Origin: Escherichia coli
Lineage (GTDB): Bacteria > Pseudomonadota > Gammaproteobacteria > Enterobacterales > Enterobacteriaceae
Reading direction: 5' to 3' (one strand)
Assembly: GCF_030384885.1 (NCBI RefSeq)
Contig: NZ_CP128613.1
Length of the DNA: 64,000 nt
In this document: positions 290 through 38,610 of the stretch, piece by piece
Numbering within the stretch: position 1 is the stretch's first letter
Layout of the letters: each line of letters opens with the position of its first letter
Made by a program: the position numbers and the translations under genes
Notes under the pieces: generated by a model
Told to the model about the DNA's origin: nothing
The model's database searches: none
Seen by the model: only the letters and a program-made list of their open reading frames with translations

Positions 290-440
290 AACTTTGCCTC
301 AGGCATTAGAAATAGCGCGTTATTGTACACGGATTAATCGCACTACAAAACAGGATCACAAACATCCTCCGCAAACAAGTATTGCAGAGTCCCTTTGTGA
401 TCGCTTTCACGGAGCATAAAAAGGGTTATCCAAAGGTCAT

Positions 441-523
441 TGCACCAATATGGTGCTTAATGTTTCCATTGAAGCACTATATTGGTGCAACATTCACATC
501 ATGGTGCAGCCCTTTTGCACGAT
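441..523. promoter_or_regulatory. NtrC (NRI) enhancer-like binding sites upstream of glnA
   Basis: TGCACCAATATGGTGCT at 441-457 and GCACTATATTGGTGCAA at 473-489 fit the dyad TGCACCA-N3-TGGTGCA; a weaker copy lies at about 501-523. Position upstream of the glnA sigma-54 promoter matches the known architecture. Confidence 0.7.
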
Positions 524-3306: not shown

Positions 3307-4716
3307 ATGCAACGAGGGATAGTCTGGGTAGTCGATGACGATAGTTCCATCCGTTGGGTGCTTGAACGTGCGCTCGCTGGAGCGGGTTTAACCTGTACGA
3401 CATTTGAGAACGGCGCGGAAGTACTGGAGGCGCTGGCGAGCAAAACGCCGGATGTGCTGCTTTCAGATATCCGTATGCCGGGAATGGACGGGCTTGCGCT
3501 GCTCAAGCAGATTAAACAGCGCCATCCGATGCTTCCGGTCATCATTATGACCGCACATTCCGATCTGGATGCTGCCGTCAGCGCCTATCAACAAGGGGCG
3601 TTTGATTATCTGCCCAAACCATTTGATATCGACGAAGCCGTGGCGCTGGTTGAGCGCGCCATCAGCCATTATCAGGAACAGCAGCAACCGCGTAATGTTC
3701 AGCTTAACGGCCCGACGACCGATATCATCGGCGAAGCGCCAGCCATGCAGGACGTGTTCCGGATTATCGGTCGGCTTTCACGTTCTTCTATTAGCGTGCT
3801 GATTAACGGCGAATCCGGCACCGGTAAAGAACTGGTCGCTCATGCCCTGCATCGCCACAGTCCTCGAGCCAAAGCGCCGTTTATCGCGCTGAATATGGCG
3901 GCTATCCCGAAGGATTTGATCGAATCAGAACTGTTCGGTCACGAGAAAGGCGCGTTTACCGGCGCGAATACTATTCGTCAGGGGCGTTTTGAACAGGCCG
4001 ATGGCGGCACGTTATTCCTCGATGAAATTGGCGATATGCCGCTCGATGTACAGACGCGTTTGCTGCGCGTGCTGGCAGACGGTCAGTTTTATCGCGTTGG
4101 CGGCTATGCGCCGGTGAAAGTGGATGTGCGGATTATCGCTGCGACCCATCAGAATCTCGAACAGCGGGTACAGGAAGGCAAGTTCCGTGAGGATTTGTTC
4201 CACCGCCTGAACGTTATCCGCGTTCATCTGCCGCCATTGCGCGAGCGTCGGGAAGATATTCCCCGCCTGGCGCGCCATTTCCTGCAGGTTGCCGCGCGCG
4301 AACTGGGCGTAGAAGCGAAGTTGCTGCATCCGGAAACCGAAGCCGCGCTGACGCGTCTGGCGTGGCCGGGTAACGTACGCCAGCTGGAAAACACCTGTCG
4401 CTGGCTAACGGTGATGGCCGCCGGGCAGGAAGTGTTGATTCAGGATTTGCCTGGCGAACTGTTTGAATCAACCGTAGCGGAAAGCCCTTCGCAATTACAG
4501 CCGGACAGTTGGGCAACGCTGTTAGCGCAGTGGGCAGACAGAGCGCTGCGTTCCGGTCATCAAAACCTGCTTTCCGAAGCGCAGCCTGAGCTTGAGCGGA
4601 CGTTACTGACGACCGCGTTGCGACATACGCAGGGGCATAAACAGGAAGCGGCGCGGCTGCTTGGCTGGGGTCGCAACACACTGACACGTAAGTTAAAAGA
4701 GCTGGGGATGGAGTGA
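3307..4716 (+). CDS. glnG: nitrogen regulation response regulator NtrC (sigma-54 activator)
   Basis: Receiver domain ([18 protein letters not shown]), AAA+ sigma-54 activation domain ([14 protein letters not shown] motif) and C-terminal HTH; start taken at ATG 3307 ([11 protein letters not shown]) rather than the longer track ORF. Confidence 0.97.
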
Positions 4717-4827
4717 TTCACGGCTTGTGTGTAAAGATTGATTATTGAGCGCAAATTGCTGGTATTTTGCGCTTTACTGTTCCGATAAGTTCAGTATGAT
4801 CTTGCCCGGAAAACGGGGAGAGTCATT

Positions 4828-4938
4828 ATGCTGGAATCAATAATTAATCTGGTATCGAGTGGCGCAGTTGACAGCCACACACCGCAAACTGCCGTTGCTG
4901 CCGTGCTGTGTGCTGCGATGATTGGGCTGTTTAGCTGA
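4828..4938 (+). CDS. yshB: small protein YshB-like (36 aa)
   Basis: Short ORF MLESIINLVSSGAVDSHTPQTAVAAVLCAAMIGLFS preceded by GGGGAGAG; matches my recollection of the annotated small protein between glnG and hemN. Not in the ORF track because it is below the length cutoff. Confidence 0.55.
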   Translation: MLESIINLVSSGAVDSHTPQTAVAAVLCAAMIGLFS

Positions 4939-4939
4939 A

Positions 4940-5060
4940 GCTCGTTGTTTATGCCGGATGCGGAGAAAGTCGTAGGCCTGATAAGACGCGACCAGCGTCG
5001 CATCAGGCATCATGCTCAGATGCCGGATGCAGCGTAAACGCCTTATCCGGCCTACAAAAG
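4940..5060. repeat. REP/BIME-type palindromic repeat cluster
   Basis: Repeated GCCGGATGCGG...CGCCTTATCCGGCCTAC and GCCTGATAAGACGCG...CGCATCAGGC units typical of enterobacterial REP elements. Confidence 0.6.
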
Positions 5061-5166
5061 CAATAATTTCAACAGGTTTTCTTAACCAGCGCATCAGGCA
5101 ATCTTGTTCTCAGCACATTGATGGCGCTTTCGTTTTCTACTTTGTAAACGAAGCGCCATTCACCAT

Positions 5167-6540
5167 TTAAATCACCCGTGAGAACTGCTGCATCCGCGCT
5201 TTCTGGCGCAGATAGGTATCAAAGCACATGCAAATGTTGCGGATCAGCAGGCGACCTTTCGCCGTTACCTGAATCCCCTTCTCATCCACATCCACCAGCC
5301 CATCTTTTGCTAACGGGGCAAGCAGCTTGAGATCTTCTGCAAAGTAATCAGCGAAGTGCAAATCCCACTGTTGCTCAATGGGGGCGTAATCCAGACGGAA
5401 GTTGCAGATGAGCGACTTAATCACATCGCGGCGAATACAGTCATCACGCGTTAGCGCAATACCACGCCACAGCGCATTGCCTTGTTCATCCACTTGCTGA
5501 TAGTACTGCTTCAACTCTTTCTGGTTCTGCGCGTAGCAGTCGCCAATCATGCTGATGGCGGAAACGCCCATCCCCAGCAGATCGGTATCGCCCTGAGTGG
5601 TGTAGCCCTGGAAGTTACGATGCAGCACGCCTTCACGCTGGGCCACCGCCAGCTCGTCATCCGGGCGAGCAAAGTGATCCATACCGATAAACTGATAGCC
5701 CGATTGTGTCAGGAAGGCGATGGTTTCCTGCAGGATATCGAGTTTTTGCTGCGGACTCGGCAGGTCAGCATCTTTGATTTTACGCTGAGCAGCAAAAATG
5801 GTCGGCAAATGCGCGTAGTTAAAGACACTCAGGCGATCGGGGTTAAGTTCCGCCACGCGTTTCAGGGTAAAGGCGAAACTCTCCGGCGTCTGTTTCGGCA
5901 GGCCGTAAATCAGGTCGATGTTGGTGGAGGTAAAGCCAATCTCACGCGCATGGTTAAGCAGTGCAAAGATGAAATCTTCATCCTGCTCGCGGTTAACCAG
6001 ACGTTGCACTTCTTTGTTGAAGTCCTGCACGCCCATGCTCAGGCGATTAAAGCCTTCGGCGCGTAAATGATCGAGTACATCCAGTTCGATTTCCCGCGGA
6101 TCGACTTCGATCGAAATCTCCGCATCGGCATTGAACTGGAAGTTTTCGCGCAGCAACTTCATCAGTCGGCTGATTTGCGCTTTGTTCAGATACGTCGGCG
6201 TACCTCCGCCCCAGTGCAATTGGCTGATGTGACGCCCGGCGAACAGCGGTGCACGATGGACGATTTCTTGCTCCAGTGCGTCCAGATACTGATCGGCCTT
6301 GTGCTGCTGGCGAGTCACTATCTTATTGCAACCGCAGAAGTAACAAAGCTTATGGCAGAACGGAATATGTACGTAGAGAGATAATGGACGCTCAGGATAG
6401 CGCGCCACGGCTTGTAAAAACGCCTGTTCGCCGAAGTCTTCTGAAAACTCCAGCGCGGTCGGGTACGAGGTGTATCGTGGCCCGGAATAGTTATATTTCT
6501 GGATCAGGGCCAGATCCCAGTCGATTTGCTGTACAGACAT
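5167..6540 (-). CDS. hemN: oxygen-independent coproporphyrinogen III oxidase (radical SAM)
   Basis: ORF with radical-SAM CxxxCxxC motif (CHKLCYFCGC); start taken at the ATG giving MSVQQIDWDLA. Confidence 0.95.
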   Translation of the reverse strand: MSVQQIDWDLALIQKYNYSGPRYTSYPTALEFSEDFGEQAFLQAVARYPERPLSLYVHIPFCHKLCYFCGCNKIVTRQQHKADQYLDALEQEIVHRAPLFAGRHISQLHWGGGTPTYLNKAQISRLMKLLRENFQFNADAEISIEVDPREIELDVLDHLRAEGFNRLSMGVQDFNKEVQRLVNREQDEDFIFALLNHAREIGFTSTNIDLIYGLPKQTPESFAFTLKRVAELNPDRLSVFNYAHLPTIFAAQRKIKDADLPSPQQKLDILQETIAFLTQSGYQFIGMDHFARPDDELAVAQREGVLHRNFQGYTTQGDTDLLGMGVSAISMIGDCYAQNQKELKQYYQQVDEQGNALWRGIALTRDDCIRRDVIKSLICNFRLDYAPIEQQWDLHFADYFAEDLKLLAPLAKDGLVDVDEKGIQVTAKGRLLIRNICMCFDTYLRQKARMQQFSRVI

Positions 6541-6728
6541 GCTCACTCCTTCCGATGGCGTCTCTGGCGGCTACGGCGTACCGGCGGATGCCCGTTTCGG
6601 GTCATCAGCCGGTTGCGCAGCCACTTTTGTCGCCGCGACAACCGCTGTAGTTTAACGAATAACCACACCAGATAACATATAACCGGAAGGGTTATCAGCA
6701 GAACGGGAAGGCCCACGGCGGCAATCCG

Positions 6729-7238: not shown

Positions 7239-7305
7239 AATGGTTCGTCTTTTAGCCGTTTTATTCAGTATAGATTTGCGGCGGAATCTAACAGAAAGCA
7301 AGCAA

Positions 7306-7549
7306 AGAAAAAAGGCGACAGATTACTCTGTCGCCTTTTTTCCTGACTCATAACCCTTAACGGGTCTTACAATCCTTGCAGGCCGCCAACACACCCTGTT
7401 TTTCCATTAGCCGGAACAATCCGTGTTGATTCCATTTCCGTTTAATTACGTCTCCGGACGTTTGTCTTCCTGACAATCCTCTGTCTTCGCCTCCTGGCGC
7501 TCCTGACCCTCATCCTGAGTCATTGTTCCTGTTAGCGTCCTCGCTCTAT
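7306..7549 (-). ncRNA. csrC: CsrC small RNA (CsrA-sequestering)
   Basis: Minus-strand sequence begins ATAGAGCGAGGACGCTAACAGGAACAATGACTCAGGATGAGGGTCAGGAGCGCCAGGAGG and carries many GGA/AGGA motifs; ends in a hairpin (AGGCGACAG / CTGTCGCCT, 7313-7336) plus U-run. Lies in the yihI-engB intergenic region. Confidence 0.8.
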
Positions 7550-8577: not shown

Positions 8578-8686
8578 TAAAAAACGCCCCAGTCATTACT
8601 GACTGGGGCGGCTAAAATATTCAGCCAAATCCGATTACGTGAAGTAAAAGGTCTGAAAGATAGAACATCTTACCTCTGTACCCTAC
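8578..8686 (-). ncRNA. spf: Spot 42 small RNA
   Basis: Reverse complement reads GTAGGGTACAGAGGTAAGATGTTCTATCTTTCAGACCTTTTACTTCACG...GCCGCCCCAGTCAGTAATGACTGGGGCGTTTTTTA, the Spot 42 sequence with its terminator hairpin. Confidence 0.9.
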
Positions 8687-8833
8687 GCGACTAACTTTAC
8701 TCTTTTTTGTTCAGTTCAGAAAGCATTTTTTGTAATTTTTTTTCAGTTGTTGCATAGGAATTTCTAATAGCCATCACAAAACGTGACAGCTTATGTTGCT
8801 TACTTACGAAAAAAGGGCATGTTCAGGCGAATC

Positions 8834-17781: not shown

Positions 17782-17901
17782 ATGCCTGGCAGTTCCCTAC
17801 TCTCGCATGGGGAGACCCCACACTACCATCGGCGCTACGGCGTTTCACTTCTGAGTTCGGCATGGGGTCAGGTGGGACCACCGCGCTAAGGCCGCCAGGC
17901 A
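17782..17901 (-). rRNA. rrfA: 5S ribosomal RNA
   Basis: 120 nt; reverse complement reads TGCCTGGCGGC...GGAACTGCCAGGCAT, the enterobacterial 5S sequence. Confidence 0.97.
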
Positions 17902-17994
17902 AATTCTGTTTCATCAGACCGCTTCTGCGTTCTGATTTAATCTGTATCAGGCTGAAAATCTTCTCTCAATCCGCCAAAACACCTTCGGCGTTGT

Positions 17995-20899
<2,905 letters not shown>

Positions 20900-21082
20900 T
20901 CACAACCCGAAGATGTTTCTTGCGATTCATCATCGTGTTGCGAAAATTTGAGAGACTCACGAACAACTCTCGTTGTTCAGTGTTTCAATTTTCAGCTTGA
21001 TCCAGATTTTTAAAGAGCAAAACTTCGCAGTGAACCTTTGCAGGTACACTCTGAAGTATTTTTTATTTAATCACTACAGAGA

Positions 21083-21158
21083 TGGTGGAGCTATGCGGGA
21101 TCGAACCGCAGACCTCCTGCGTGCAAAGCAGGCGCTCTCCCAGCTGAGCTATAGCCCC
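21083..21158 (-). tRNA. alaT: tRNA-Ala (anticodon UGC)
   Basis: Reverse complement GGGGCTATAGCTCAGCTGGGAGAGCGCCTGCTTTGCACGCAGGAGGTCTGCGGTTCGATCCCGCATAGCTCCACCA, in the 16S-23S spacer. Confidence 0.97.
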
Positions 21159-21200
21159 ATAACATGTAGTTAAAACCTCTTCAAATTTGCGGTGCAAATT

Positions 21201-21277
<77 letters not shown>

Positions 21278-21345
21278 GTAGAGGTTTTACTGCTCATTTT
21301 CATCAGACAATCTGTGTGAGCACTGCAAAGCACAGTTCTTTAAGG

Positions 21346-22887
<1,542 letters not shown>

Positions 22888-36367: not shown

Positions 36368-38610
<2,243 letters not shown>

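What the first reader, a model, noticed from the sequence alone, without database searches (positions are those of the whole stretch)
4828..4938. 36-codon small ORF between glnG and hemN, missed by the ORF track
A short ORF with a good SD (GGGGAGAG) encodes a hydrophobic 36-aa peptide and is followed directly by REP elements. It matches what I recall as yshB, but small proteins of this kind are easily missed or mis-annotated.
Basis: partly seen in the sequence, partly recalled or inferred. Interest (0 to 1): 0.2.

Follow-up and report, generated by a model that had tools for sequence, protein, structure and literature searches.

The report
Known small membrane protein gene yshB

Summary
An ATG-started 36-codon ORF lies at window 4828-4938 (+). 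A GGGGAGAG Shine-Dalgarno sequence precedes it at 4815-4822, and REP/BIME palindromes follow it from about 4951. The peptide scores 72.1 bits against NCBIfam NF033841 (YshB equivalog, cutoff 34). It is identical to K-12 YshB, and every RefSeq E. coli record listed annotates the match as yshB. It is present once in 5425 of 5426 complete E. coli genomes.

In 61 loci from about 60 species of Enterobacteriaceae and neighbouring families, the frame is always intact (35-41 codons, in-frame indels only). It always sits between glnG and hemN where the flanks are held, and it is under purifying selection (pN/pS 0.25). All 61 carry the same sigma-70-type promoter.

Published work reports the intact protein by top-down mass spectrometry. 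It also reports cleavage of tagged YshB by the intramembrane protease RseP, and a role in Salmonella intracellular replication.

The ORF track most likely missed it on a length threshold. The molecular function is still unknown, but nothing here is new. Interest is low.

The parts
4747..4774 (+). Hairpin GAGCGCAAA-N10-TTTGCGCTT, 31 nt after the glnG stop codon. It is probably the terminator of the glnALG operon. Its 3' arm and the T-rich tail overlap the -35 hexamer of yshB.
   Evidence: RNA fold gives a 9-bp stem, but the whole 84-nt segment folds no better than shuffles (z = -0.21). The sequence is strongly conserved across genera. The consensus terminator scan did not call it, because the loop is 10 nt and the T-run is interrupted. 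The terminator role is inferred.
4773..4800 (+). yshB promoter of sigma-70 type: -35 TTTACT (4773-4778), a 16-nt spacer, and -10 TATGAT (4795-4800).
   Evidence: The consensus scan found it. The pattern TTTAC[T/A]-N16-TA[T/A]NAT, with exactly 16 nt of spacer, is present in 61 of 61 distinct upstream sequences, and these are invariant columns in the alignment. [quoted passage not shown] The transcription start was not mapped here.
4815..4822 (+). Shine-Dalgarno sequence GGGGAGAG; the GGAG core lies 7 nt before the ATG.
   Evidence: Read directly from the sequence. A G-rich purine run sits at the same position in all orthologous loci.
4828..4938 (+). yshB coding sequence: 36 codons plus a TGA stop. 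It encodes a small hydrophobic protein with a predicted short N-terminal helix, the conserved S-H-T-P-Q-T-A motif, and a C-terminal membrane-spanning helix.
   Evidence: identity. (conservation, synteny, pN/pS 0.25). (invariant M1, H17, P19, Q20, T21, A22, A25, C28, A29). (AlphaFold2: helices 2-12 and 17-35, pLDDT 74.7).
4951..5055 (.). A cluster of REP palindromes (BIME) between yshB and hemN. It probably forms the stable 3' structure of the yshB transcript.
   Evidence: REP-consensus matches. Inverted repeats I1, I4 and I5. Rfam RF02564 naRNA4 scores 81.2 bits at 4975-5052. The fold of 4936-5070 is -52.6 kcal/mol with z = -4.2. The segment recurs at a median of 4 places per E. coli genome.
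5120..5160 (.). A hairpin 7 nt beyond the hemN stop codon (5167 on the minus strand). It is probably the hemN terminator, and possibly a shared convergent terminator.
   Evidence: Fold energy is -20.8 kcal/mol (+ strand, z = -4.1) and -21.4 kcal/mol (- strand, z = -2.5). There is no T-run, so the terminator scan did not call it. Every other species holds a strong hairpin in the yshB-hemN gap.

Best explanation
The ORF is yshB, a translated single-copy core gene of E. coli and related Enterobacterales.

Shown here:
- The reading frame, start codon, ribosome-binding site and a sigma-70-type promoter (TTTACT-N16-TATGAT) are conserved across about 60 species.
- Substitutions fall mainly on third codon positions.
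- Length changes are whole codons, confined to the linker between the two predicted helices.

Inferred from the sequence and the AlphaFold2 model:
- The 36-aa product has a short N-terminal helix (residues 2-12) and a variable linker.
- It has an invariant H-x-P-Q-T-A motif and a C-terminal hydrophobic helix of about 19 residues (17-35), containing an invariant Cys28, that inserts into the inner membrane.

Taken from the literature:
- The intact protein is detected by top-down mass spectrometry.
- It has been predicted to be abundant in stationary phase.
- Tagged versions are cleaved by the site-2 protease RseP in vivo and in vitro.
- The Salmonella orthologue promotes intracellular replication and virulence.

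Most likely mechanism (inference by analogy, not shown): like other bacterial small membrane proteins, YshB acts by binding and modulating a larger inner-membrane protein or complex through its transmembrane helix. Its level would be set by its own constitutive or stationary-phase promoter and by RseP-dependent turnover. The downstream REP cluster probably acts as a 3' stabiliser or terminator for the short transcript.
For: Identity:
- NCBIfam NF033841 scores 72.1 bits against a cutoff of 34.
- The exact sequence is named YSHB_ECOLI and equals the K-12 sequence in PMC10470546 Table S1.
- It is annotated yshB in every RefSeq record listed.
- It is present once in 5425 of 5426 complete E. coli genomes at 95% identity or more.

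Coding:
- 61 of 61 complete orthologous ORFs start with ATG and are intact, at 35-41 codons.
- Aggregate pN/pS is 0.25 and median dN/dS is 0.12.
- Entropy by codon position is 20.0 / 9.8 / 48.1.
- There are no stops in this frame in 60 of 60 distinct sequences; 11 to 58 sequences have stops in each of the other five frames.

Synteny: glnG lies upstream in every locus that held upstream flank. hemN lies convergent downstream in all but one locus, the Brenneria one.

Expression signals: the promoter hexamers with a 16-nt spacer occur in 61 of 61 sequences, and a conserved G-rich SD is present.

Structure: two helices, pLDDT 74.7; GRAVY +1.12.

Literature:
- Top-down MS detection (PMC12529367).
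- Class I RseP substrate in four assays (PMC10470546).
- Own promoter, not induced by nitrogen limitation (PMC9731577).
- More than 11,000 copies predicted in stationary phase (PMC7549839; PMC10502375).
- Salmonella virulence role (Bomjan et al. 2019, as cited).
Against: - No partner protein or biochemical activity is known, so the 'modulator of a larger membrane protein' step rests only on analogy.
- Plasmid-expressed C-terminally His-tagged YshB could not be detected by western blot in one study (PMC7549839).
- Membrane topology has not been determined experimentally. TOPCONS predicts N-out/C-in, whereas RseP normally cleaves N-in/C-out proteins.
- The hydrophobic stretch is short, and 37 of 38 distinct family members have no basic residue, so the positive-inside rule gives no orientation.
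- RseP cleavage was shown only for tagged constructs.
- I could not read Hemm 2008 or Bomjan 2019 directly.
Confidence: 0.95

Rival explanations
1. The ORF is a chance reading frame in a non-coding spacer or 3' UTR of the glnALG operon and makes no protein.
For: It is only 36 codons long. It has no Pfam family. It lies in an intergenic region rich in repeats.
Against: The frame is intact in 61 of 61 complete loci, with only in-frame indels. pN/pS is 0.25 and variation is concentrated at third codon positions. The start codon, SD and promoter are conserved. The intact protein was detected by top-down MS.
Confidence: 0.01
2. The transcript acts mainly as a regulatory RNA, or is dual-function. 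This would be comparable to the sRNA NrsZ, which lies downstream of ntrBC in Pseudomonas, and the peptide would be secondary.
For: PMC9731577 points out that yshB occupies the locus corresponding to NrsZ. The transcript is short, has its own promoter, and ends in strong secondary structure.
Against: Synonymous sites vary freely (pS 0.56, median dS about 1), while amino acids are conserved. Every invariant column within the ORF that I checked in the alignment is a first or second codon position. There is no Rfam match over the ORF. The mRNA segment 4800-4945 folds no better than shuffles (z = -0.5). PMC9731577 reports no induction under nitrogen limitation, unlike NrsZ.
Confidence: 0.03
3. YshB is a small hydrophobic membrane toxin of a type I toxin-antitoxin system, like the Hok, Ibs or Ldr peptides.
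For: It is a small hydrophobic peptide with one predicted membrane helix. It falls in the same RseP substrate class as HokB and HokE.
Against: It is a single-copy core gene in fixed synteny across about 60 species, not a multi-copy or mobile locus. The 'plasmid' hits are non-mobilizable records, and several are chromosome-sized. No antisense RNA gene or conserved antisense promoter was seen. High copy numbers are predicted in stationary phase. It has no basic residues, unlike the Hok sequences listed beside it in the table. A loss-of-function phenotype (reduced virulence) is reported, rather than toxicity.
Confidence: 0.01

Closest known systems
YshB family small membrane protein (NCBIfam NF033841; UniProt YSHB_ECOLI; gene yshB, G0-10657)
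   Same: The amino-acid sequence is identical to E. coli K-12 YshB. It has the same length (36 aa) and the same position between glnG and hemN. The family model scores 72.1 bits against a cutoff of 34.
   Different: Nothing differs. The window's strain differs from other E. coli only by a few silent or flanking substitutions and in the layout of the downstream REP cluster.
Salmonella enterica YshB (Bomjan, Zhang and Zhou 2019, J Bacteriol 201:e00314-19)
   Same: It is the orthologue at the same locus, 92% identical (MLESIINLVSSGAVDSHTPQTALAAVLCAALVGLFS). It has the same promoter and SD.
   Different: It has three conservative substitutions in the C-terminal helix. The virulence and intracellular-replication phenotype has been reported only for Salmonella; no phenotype is known for E. 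coli.
Bacterial small membrane-protein regulators (MgrB-PhoQ, AcrZ-AcrB, MgtS-MgtA, CydX-cytochrome bd)
   Same: It is similar in size (under 50 aa), has a single predicted transmembrane helix, and was found by the same type of screen. Like MgrB and CydX, it was tested as an RseP substrate.
   Different: There is no sequence similarity, no known partner, and no basic residues flanking the helix. The analogy concerns the likely mode of action only, not family membership.
REP/BIME elements; Rfam RF02564 naRNA4 (REP325-derived)
   Same: The downstream segment 4975-5052 matches the full-length model above its gathering score (81.2 against 59.5 bits). It consists of inverted REP units.
   Different: This is a different genomic copy from the one the family was described from. 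The match most likely reflects the shared REP repeat, not a demonstrated nucleoid-associated RNA at this locus.

Membership tests
YshB family small membrane protein (NF033841, equivalog) | Whole-protein score above the curated NCBIfam cutoff | tested here: met
   72.1 bits against a cutoff of 34, E = 2.4e-20, covering residues 1-36 of the protein and 1-40 of 40 in the profile.
YshB family small membrane protein (NF033841, equivalog) | Length of about 35-41 aa, with the conserved central motif S/T-H-T/A-P-Q-T-A and a conserved Cys in the C-terminal hydrophobic helix | tested here: met
   The window protein has S16-H17-T18-P19-Q20-T21-A22 and C28. These columns are invariant or nearly invariant in 24 diverse members.
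YshB family small membrane protein (NF033841, equivalog) | Genomic position downstream of glnLG (ntrBC) and convergent with hemN | tested here: met
   In the window, glnG ends at 4716, yshB is 4828-4938, and hemN is 5167-6546 (-). The same order holds in every related locus that held the flanks, except one without a hemN match.
YshB family small membrane protein (NF033841, equivalog) | The ORF is translated | not testable with these tools
   Indirect support comes from the purifying-selection signature and the conserved SD and ATG. Direct evidence comes only from the literature: top-down MS detection of YshB in E. coli (PMC12529367).
YshB family small membrane protein (NF033841, equivalog) | Integral inner-membrane localisation with one transmembrane helix | tested here: inconclusive
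   The hydropathy of residues 20-36 averages about +1.8, and the AlphaFold2 helix 17-35 is long enough to span a bilayer. TOPCONS predicts one transmembrane segment in PMC10470546 Table S1. No experimental localisation or topology was available to me.
REP/BIME repeat (downstream element) | Imperfect palindromic units of about 35 nt matching the REP consensus, in alternating orientation, repeated many times in the genome, and extragenic | tested here: met
   Four consensus matches in alternating orientation lie at 4953-5051. The window holds 15 matches against 2.95 expected. Inverted repeats are present. The Rfam naRNA4 hit is above its gathering score. The 471-nt query that contains the cluster matches a median of 4 places per E. 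coli genome, whereas the yshB-only query matches exactly 1.
Type I toxin-antitoxin membrane toxins (Hok/Ibs/Ldr-like) | A cis-encoded antisense RNA and multi-copy or variable genomic distribution | tested here: not met
   The gene is single-copy in 5425 of 5426 genomes and in fixed synteny across genera. There is no Rfam antisense family. Toxicity itself was not testable.

The most novel reading that the evidence does not exclude
YshB's molecular role is still open. The evidence does not exclude a specific cofactor-linked or partner-linked function built on the invariant His17-x-Pro-Gln-Thr-Ala motif and the invariant membrane-embedded Cys28. One possibility is an accessory subunit or sensor of a conserved inner-membrane complex, perhaps connected with the ever-adjacent anaerobic haem-synthesis gene hemN. 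The family-wide lack of basic residues might also permit dual topology. Any such function would be a new finding about a known protein, not a new genetic element.
Probability: 0.07. Interest if true: 0.4.

Novelty: already known. Interest (0 to 1): 0.07.

Why it matters
It matters little as a discovery, because yshB has been known since 2008 and is annotated in every listed E. coli RefSeq record that matched. The check does show that the first-stage reader can correctly pick out a true 36-codon gene from raw sequence. It also gives a clean comparative confirmation, which may help anyone studying this still functionally uncharacterised protein: the frame, start codon, SD and promoter are conserved in about 60 species, pN/pS is 0.25, and there is an invariant HxPQTA motif and an invariant Cys.

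Tried and rejected
I used the exhaustive representative search instead. It found only 15 hits at E up to 1e-3, all short YshB-like sequences or run-on calls of the same ORF, so the family is narrow.

2. Pfam has no family for it.

3. I considered a small stem-loop in the leader, CCCG-gaaaa-CGGG at 4805-4817, overlapping the G-run of the SD. It showed a few compensatory-looking variants (CGCG/CGCG, CCAG/CTGG, CCGGT/ACCGG).
   - RNAalifold predicted no consensus pair.
   - Pair counting gave only weak excess over shuffles: 79.5% paired against 76.9%, with 20-47 of 500 shuffles as good.
   - Register-free best-stem lengths equal those of composition-matched shuffles: 4.30 bp against 4.31 bp.
   - With the -10 hexamer ending at 4800, the transcription start probably falls inside or next to the 5' arm.
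   - I rejected it as unsupported.

4. The antisense frame also shows a low pN/pS (0.29). This is the expected mirror effect of the sense codon pattern. That frame has stops in 11 of 60 sequences, and the window's antisense ORFs (4791-5003 and 4837-5094, minus strand) run into the REP cluster. I rejected them as genes.

5. The hairpin after glnG as a canonical intrinsic terminator: the scan did not call it, and the 84-nt segment containing it folds no better than shuffles (z = -0.21). I keep it only as a probable terminator on grounds of position and conservation.

6. Mobility: tblastn against plasmids gave 9 hits, all non-mobilizable. Several of these records are chromosome-sized (4.8-4.9 Mb), so they are probably mislabelled chromosomal sequence.

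7. I could not open the primary papers (Hemm 2008, Hemm 2010, Fontaine 2011, Bomjan 2019) in the held library. Their content is cited only as reported by papers I could read.

Full report
**Observation.** The window holds an ATG-started ORF at 4828..4938 on the + strand. It encodes 36 aa, MLESIINLVSSGAVDSHTPQTAVAAVLCAAMIGLFS.
- The sequence GGGGAGAG lies at 4815-4822, and its GGAG core is 7 nt from the ATG.
- The peptide is hydrophobic: GRAVY is +1.12, it has no Lys or Arg, and the C-terminal 17 residues average about +1.8 on the Kyte-Doolittle scale.
- The upstream gene is glnG (NR-I, ending at 4716). The downstream gene is hemN, convergent, at 5167-6546 on the minus strand.
- Thirteen bases after the stop codon a cluster of REP palindromes begins. 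Four matches to the REP consensus lie in alternating orientation between 4953 and 5051. The window holds 15 such matches against 2.95 expected by chance.
- Inverted repeats are present.
- Positions 4975-5052 match the REP-derived Rfam family naRNA4 (RF02564) at 81.2 bits, above its gathering score of 59.5.

**Identity.**
- The peptide scores 72.1 bits against the NCBIfam equivalog model NF033841, 'YshB family small membrane protein', whose cutoff is 34 bits. There is no Pfam family.
- The exact sequence is in the public protein collection under the names 'YshB family small membrane protein' and 'Uncharacterized protein YshB ... RepID=YSHB_ECOLI'.
- It is identical, letter for letter, to the K-12 YshB sequence printed in Table S1 of PMC10470546.
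- Megablast of 4700-5170 against all complete RefSeq E. coli genomes found 100% identical loci. The features under the match are glnG, 'yshB: YshB family small membrane protein' and hemN.
- A query limited to the promoter and ORF (4770-4940) matches exactly once in 5425 of 5426 genomes, always at 95% identity or more. The match is annotated yshB in all listed rows.

The window is thus an E. coli chromosome segment, and the ORF is the known gene yshB. The ORF track presumably missed it on a length threshold. Current annotation does not miss it.

**Is it really coding?** I fetched 62 related loci from one genome per species. They cover Escherichia, Salmonella, Citrobacter, Enterobacter, Klebsiella, Kosakonia, Trabulsiella, Pluralibacter, Franconibacter, Mangrovibacter, Phytobacter, Leclercia, Erwinia, Izhakiella, Pantoea and Brenneria.
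- glnG lies upstream in every locus that held upstream flank. hemN lies convergent downstream in all but the Brenneria locus.
- One locus is cut by its edge. Among the 61 complete loci analysed, which include one annotated E. coli reference locus (L001), the ORF starts with ATG and is uninterrupted. It runs 35 to 41 codons, and all length differences are whole codons located in the linker before the conserved motif.
- Across 60 distinct ORF sequences, the summed column entropy is 20.0, 9.8 and 48.1 for codon positions 1, 2 and 3.
- Aggregate pN/pS is 0.25 and median pairwise dN/dS is 0.12, at a median dS of about 1.
- None of the 60 sequences has a stop in this frame. Each of the other five frames has stops in 11 to 58 sequences.
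- The low pN/pS of one antisense frame (0.29) is the expected mirror of the sense codon pattern, and that frame is interrupted in 11 sequences.

**Expression signals.**
- The glnG-stop-to-ATG distance is nearly constant, at about 108-113 nt in most species.
- The spacer is well conserved.
- The consensus scan finds one sigma-70-type promoter: TTTACT (4773-4778), a 16-nt spacer, and TATGAT (4795-4800).
- The pattern TTTAC[T/A]-N16-TA[T/A]NAT, with exactly 16 nt of spacer, is present in all 61 distinct upstream sequences. It leaves 24-29 nt between the -10 hexamer and the ATG. [quoted passage not shown]
- Immediately upstream, a conserved 9-bp hairpin (4747-4774) overlaps the -35 hexamer. It is probably the glnALG terminator. 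That role is inferred from position and conservation, since the terminator scan did not call it and the fold is not better than shuffles.

**The yshB-hemN gap.**
- Downstream, every species has a strong hairpin in the yshB-hemN gap.
- Franconibacter and Mangrovibacter have a plain bidirectional terminator. Salmonella, Citrobacter and Enterobacter have REP-like palindromes. Escherichia has a longer REP cluster.
- In the window, the segment 4936-5070 folds at -52.6 kcal/mol (z = -4.2).
- A further hairpin lies at 5120-5160, next to the hemN stop codon.

**The protein.**
- In an alignment of 24 diverse members, M1, H17, P19, Q20, T21, A22, A25, C28 and A29 are invariant. L2, E3, S16, T18, A24, L27 and F35 are nearly invariant.
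- AlphaFold2 run on this alignment gives helix 2-12, a break at 13-16 and helix 17-35. Mean pLDDT is 74.7, which is moderate confidence.
- Thirty-seven of 38 distinct family proteins have no Lys or Arg. The positive-inside rule therefore gives no orientation.
- PMC10470546 lists a TOPCONS prediction of N-out/C-in and no experimental topology.
- The exhaustive search of 1.84 billion representative proteins found only 15 hits. All are YshB-like or run-on calls of the same ORF, so the family is confined to this narrow lineage.

**Published knowledge, as read here.**
- The gene was found by Hemm et al. 2008, and the Salmonella orthologue promotes intracellular replication and virulence (Bomjan et al. 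2019). Both are known to me only as cited in PMC9731577 and PMC10470546.
- YshB is a 'class I' RseP substrate. Tagged versions were cleaved with overproduced RseP, with chromosomal RseP, as 3xFLAG fusions, and in vitro. Additional cleavage by unidentified proteases was also seen.
- Intact YshB is detected by top-down proteomics. It has no tryptic sites, which fits the absence of Lys and Arg.
- More than 11,000 copies per stationary-phase cell have been predicted.
- One study failed to detect plasmid-expressed His-tagged YshB.
- I could not open the primary Hemm, Fontaine and Bomjan papers.

**Mechanism.** Comparative evidence and the published mass spectrometry show that yshB is a translated gene with its own conserved promoter, and the published assays show RseP cleavage of tagged YshB. 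Three points are inferred:
- YshB inserts into the inner membrane through helix 17-35.
- It works, like MgrB, AcrZ, MgtS or CydX, by binding a larger membrane protein.
- RseP contributes to its turnover.

No partner is known, so this last layer is analogy only.

**Rivals.** Each is contradicted by the data above:
- A chance ORF.
- An RNA-only function analogous to Pseudomonas NrsZ.
- A type I toxin.

**Things tried that led nowhere.**
- A small leader stem-loop (4805-4817) with some compensatory-looking variants did not exceed composition-matched controls.
- The plasmid hits are non-mobilizable records, several of chromosome size, and probably mislabelled.

**Verdict.** The feature is already known and annotated. 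Interest is low; what remains open is YshB's molecular function, which these tools cannot address.

Noticed in passing
window 4773-4800, and L002-L063 at the equivalent position: The yshB promoter (TTTAC[T/A], exactly 16 nt, TA[T/A]NAT) is present in all 61 distinct upstream sequences from about 60 species. The whole glnG-yshB spacer keeps an almost constant length of about 110 nt. The -35 hexamer overlaps the 3' arm and T-tail of the hairpin that probably terminates glnALG.
   Followed up: partly
window 4805-4817: A small stem-loop, CCCG-gaaaa-CGGG, lies between the -10 hexamer and the SD. A few species show compensatory-looking changes (CGCG/CGCG, CCAG/CTGG, CCGGT/ACCGG). It does no better than composition-matched shuffles, so it is unsupported.
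   Followed up: yes
window 4975-5052 (both strands): The REP/BIME cluster downstream of yshB matches Rfam naRNA4 (RF02564, a nucleoid-associated RNA derived from REP325) above its gathering score on the minus strand (81.2 bits). It scores 46.4 bits on the plus strand. This probably reflects the shared repeat, not a specific RNA gene here.
   Followed up: partly
L006-L063, the gap between the yshB stop and the hemN stop: The convergent yshB-hemN gap holds a strong hairpin in every species, but of different kinds. Franconibacter and Mangrovibacter have a classic A-run/T-run bidirectional terminator. Salmonella, Citrobacter and Enterobacter have REP-like palindromes. Escherichia has multi-REP clusters of 136-604 nt. 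In Pantoea sp. A4 the two genes' ends overlap (gap of -2 nt).
   Followed up: partly
YshB family proteins: 37 of 38 distinct family members contain no Lys or Arg at all, which is unusual for a membrane-anchored peptide. The only charged or titratable residues are E3, an acidic residue in the linker, and the invariant H17.
   Followed up: no
window 371-478 (-), 7296-7549 (-), 8578-8696 (-), 17784-22887 (-), 38005-38256 (-): Other Rfam matches above their gathering scores in the window: ES222 sRNA (antisense, in the glnA-glnL region), CsrC, Spot 42, a complete rRNA operon with two tRNAs, and the Erse sRNA. These fit the E. coli chromosome around glnALG-hemN-yihI.
   Followed up: no
L001 5158-5324 (-), that is, just beyond yihI; about window 7357-7523: RefSeq annotates a frameshifted 'hypothetical protein' pseudogene here. 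In the window this stretch overlaps the CsrC sRNA match (7296-7549, minus strand), so the pseudogene call is probably an annotation artefact over an sRNA gene.
   Followed up: no
plasmid collection hits H28-H35: Several PLSDB 'plasmid' records that carry yshB are 4.8-4.9 Mb long, or are 150-430 kb non-mobilizable records from Salmonella and Citrobacter. They look like chromosomal sequence filed as plasmids.
   Followed up: no
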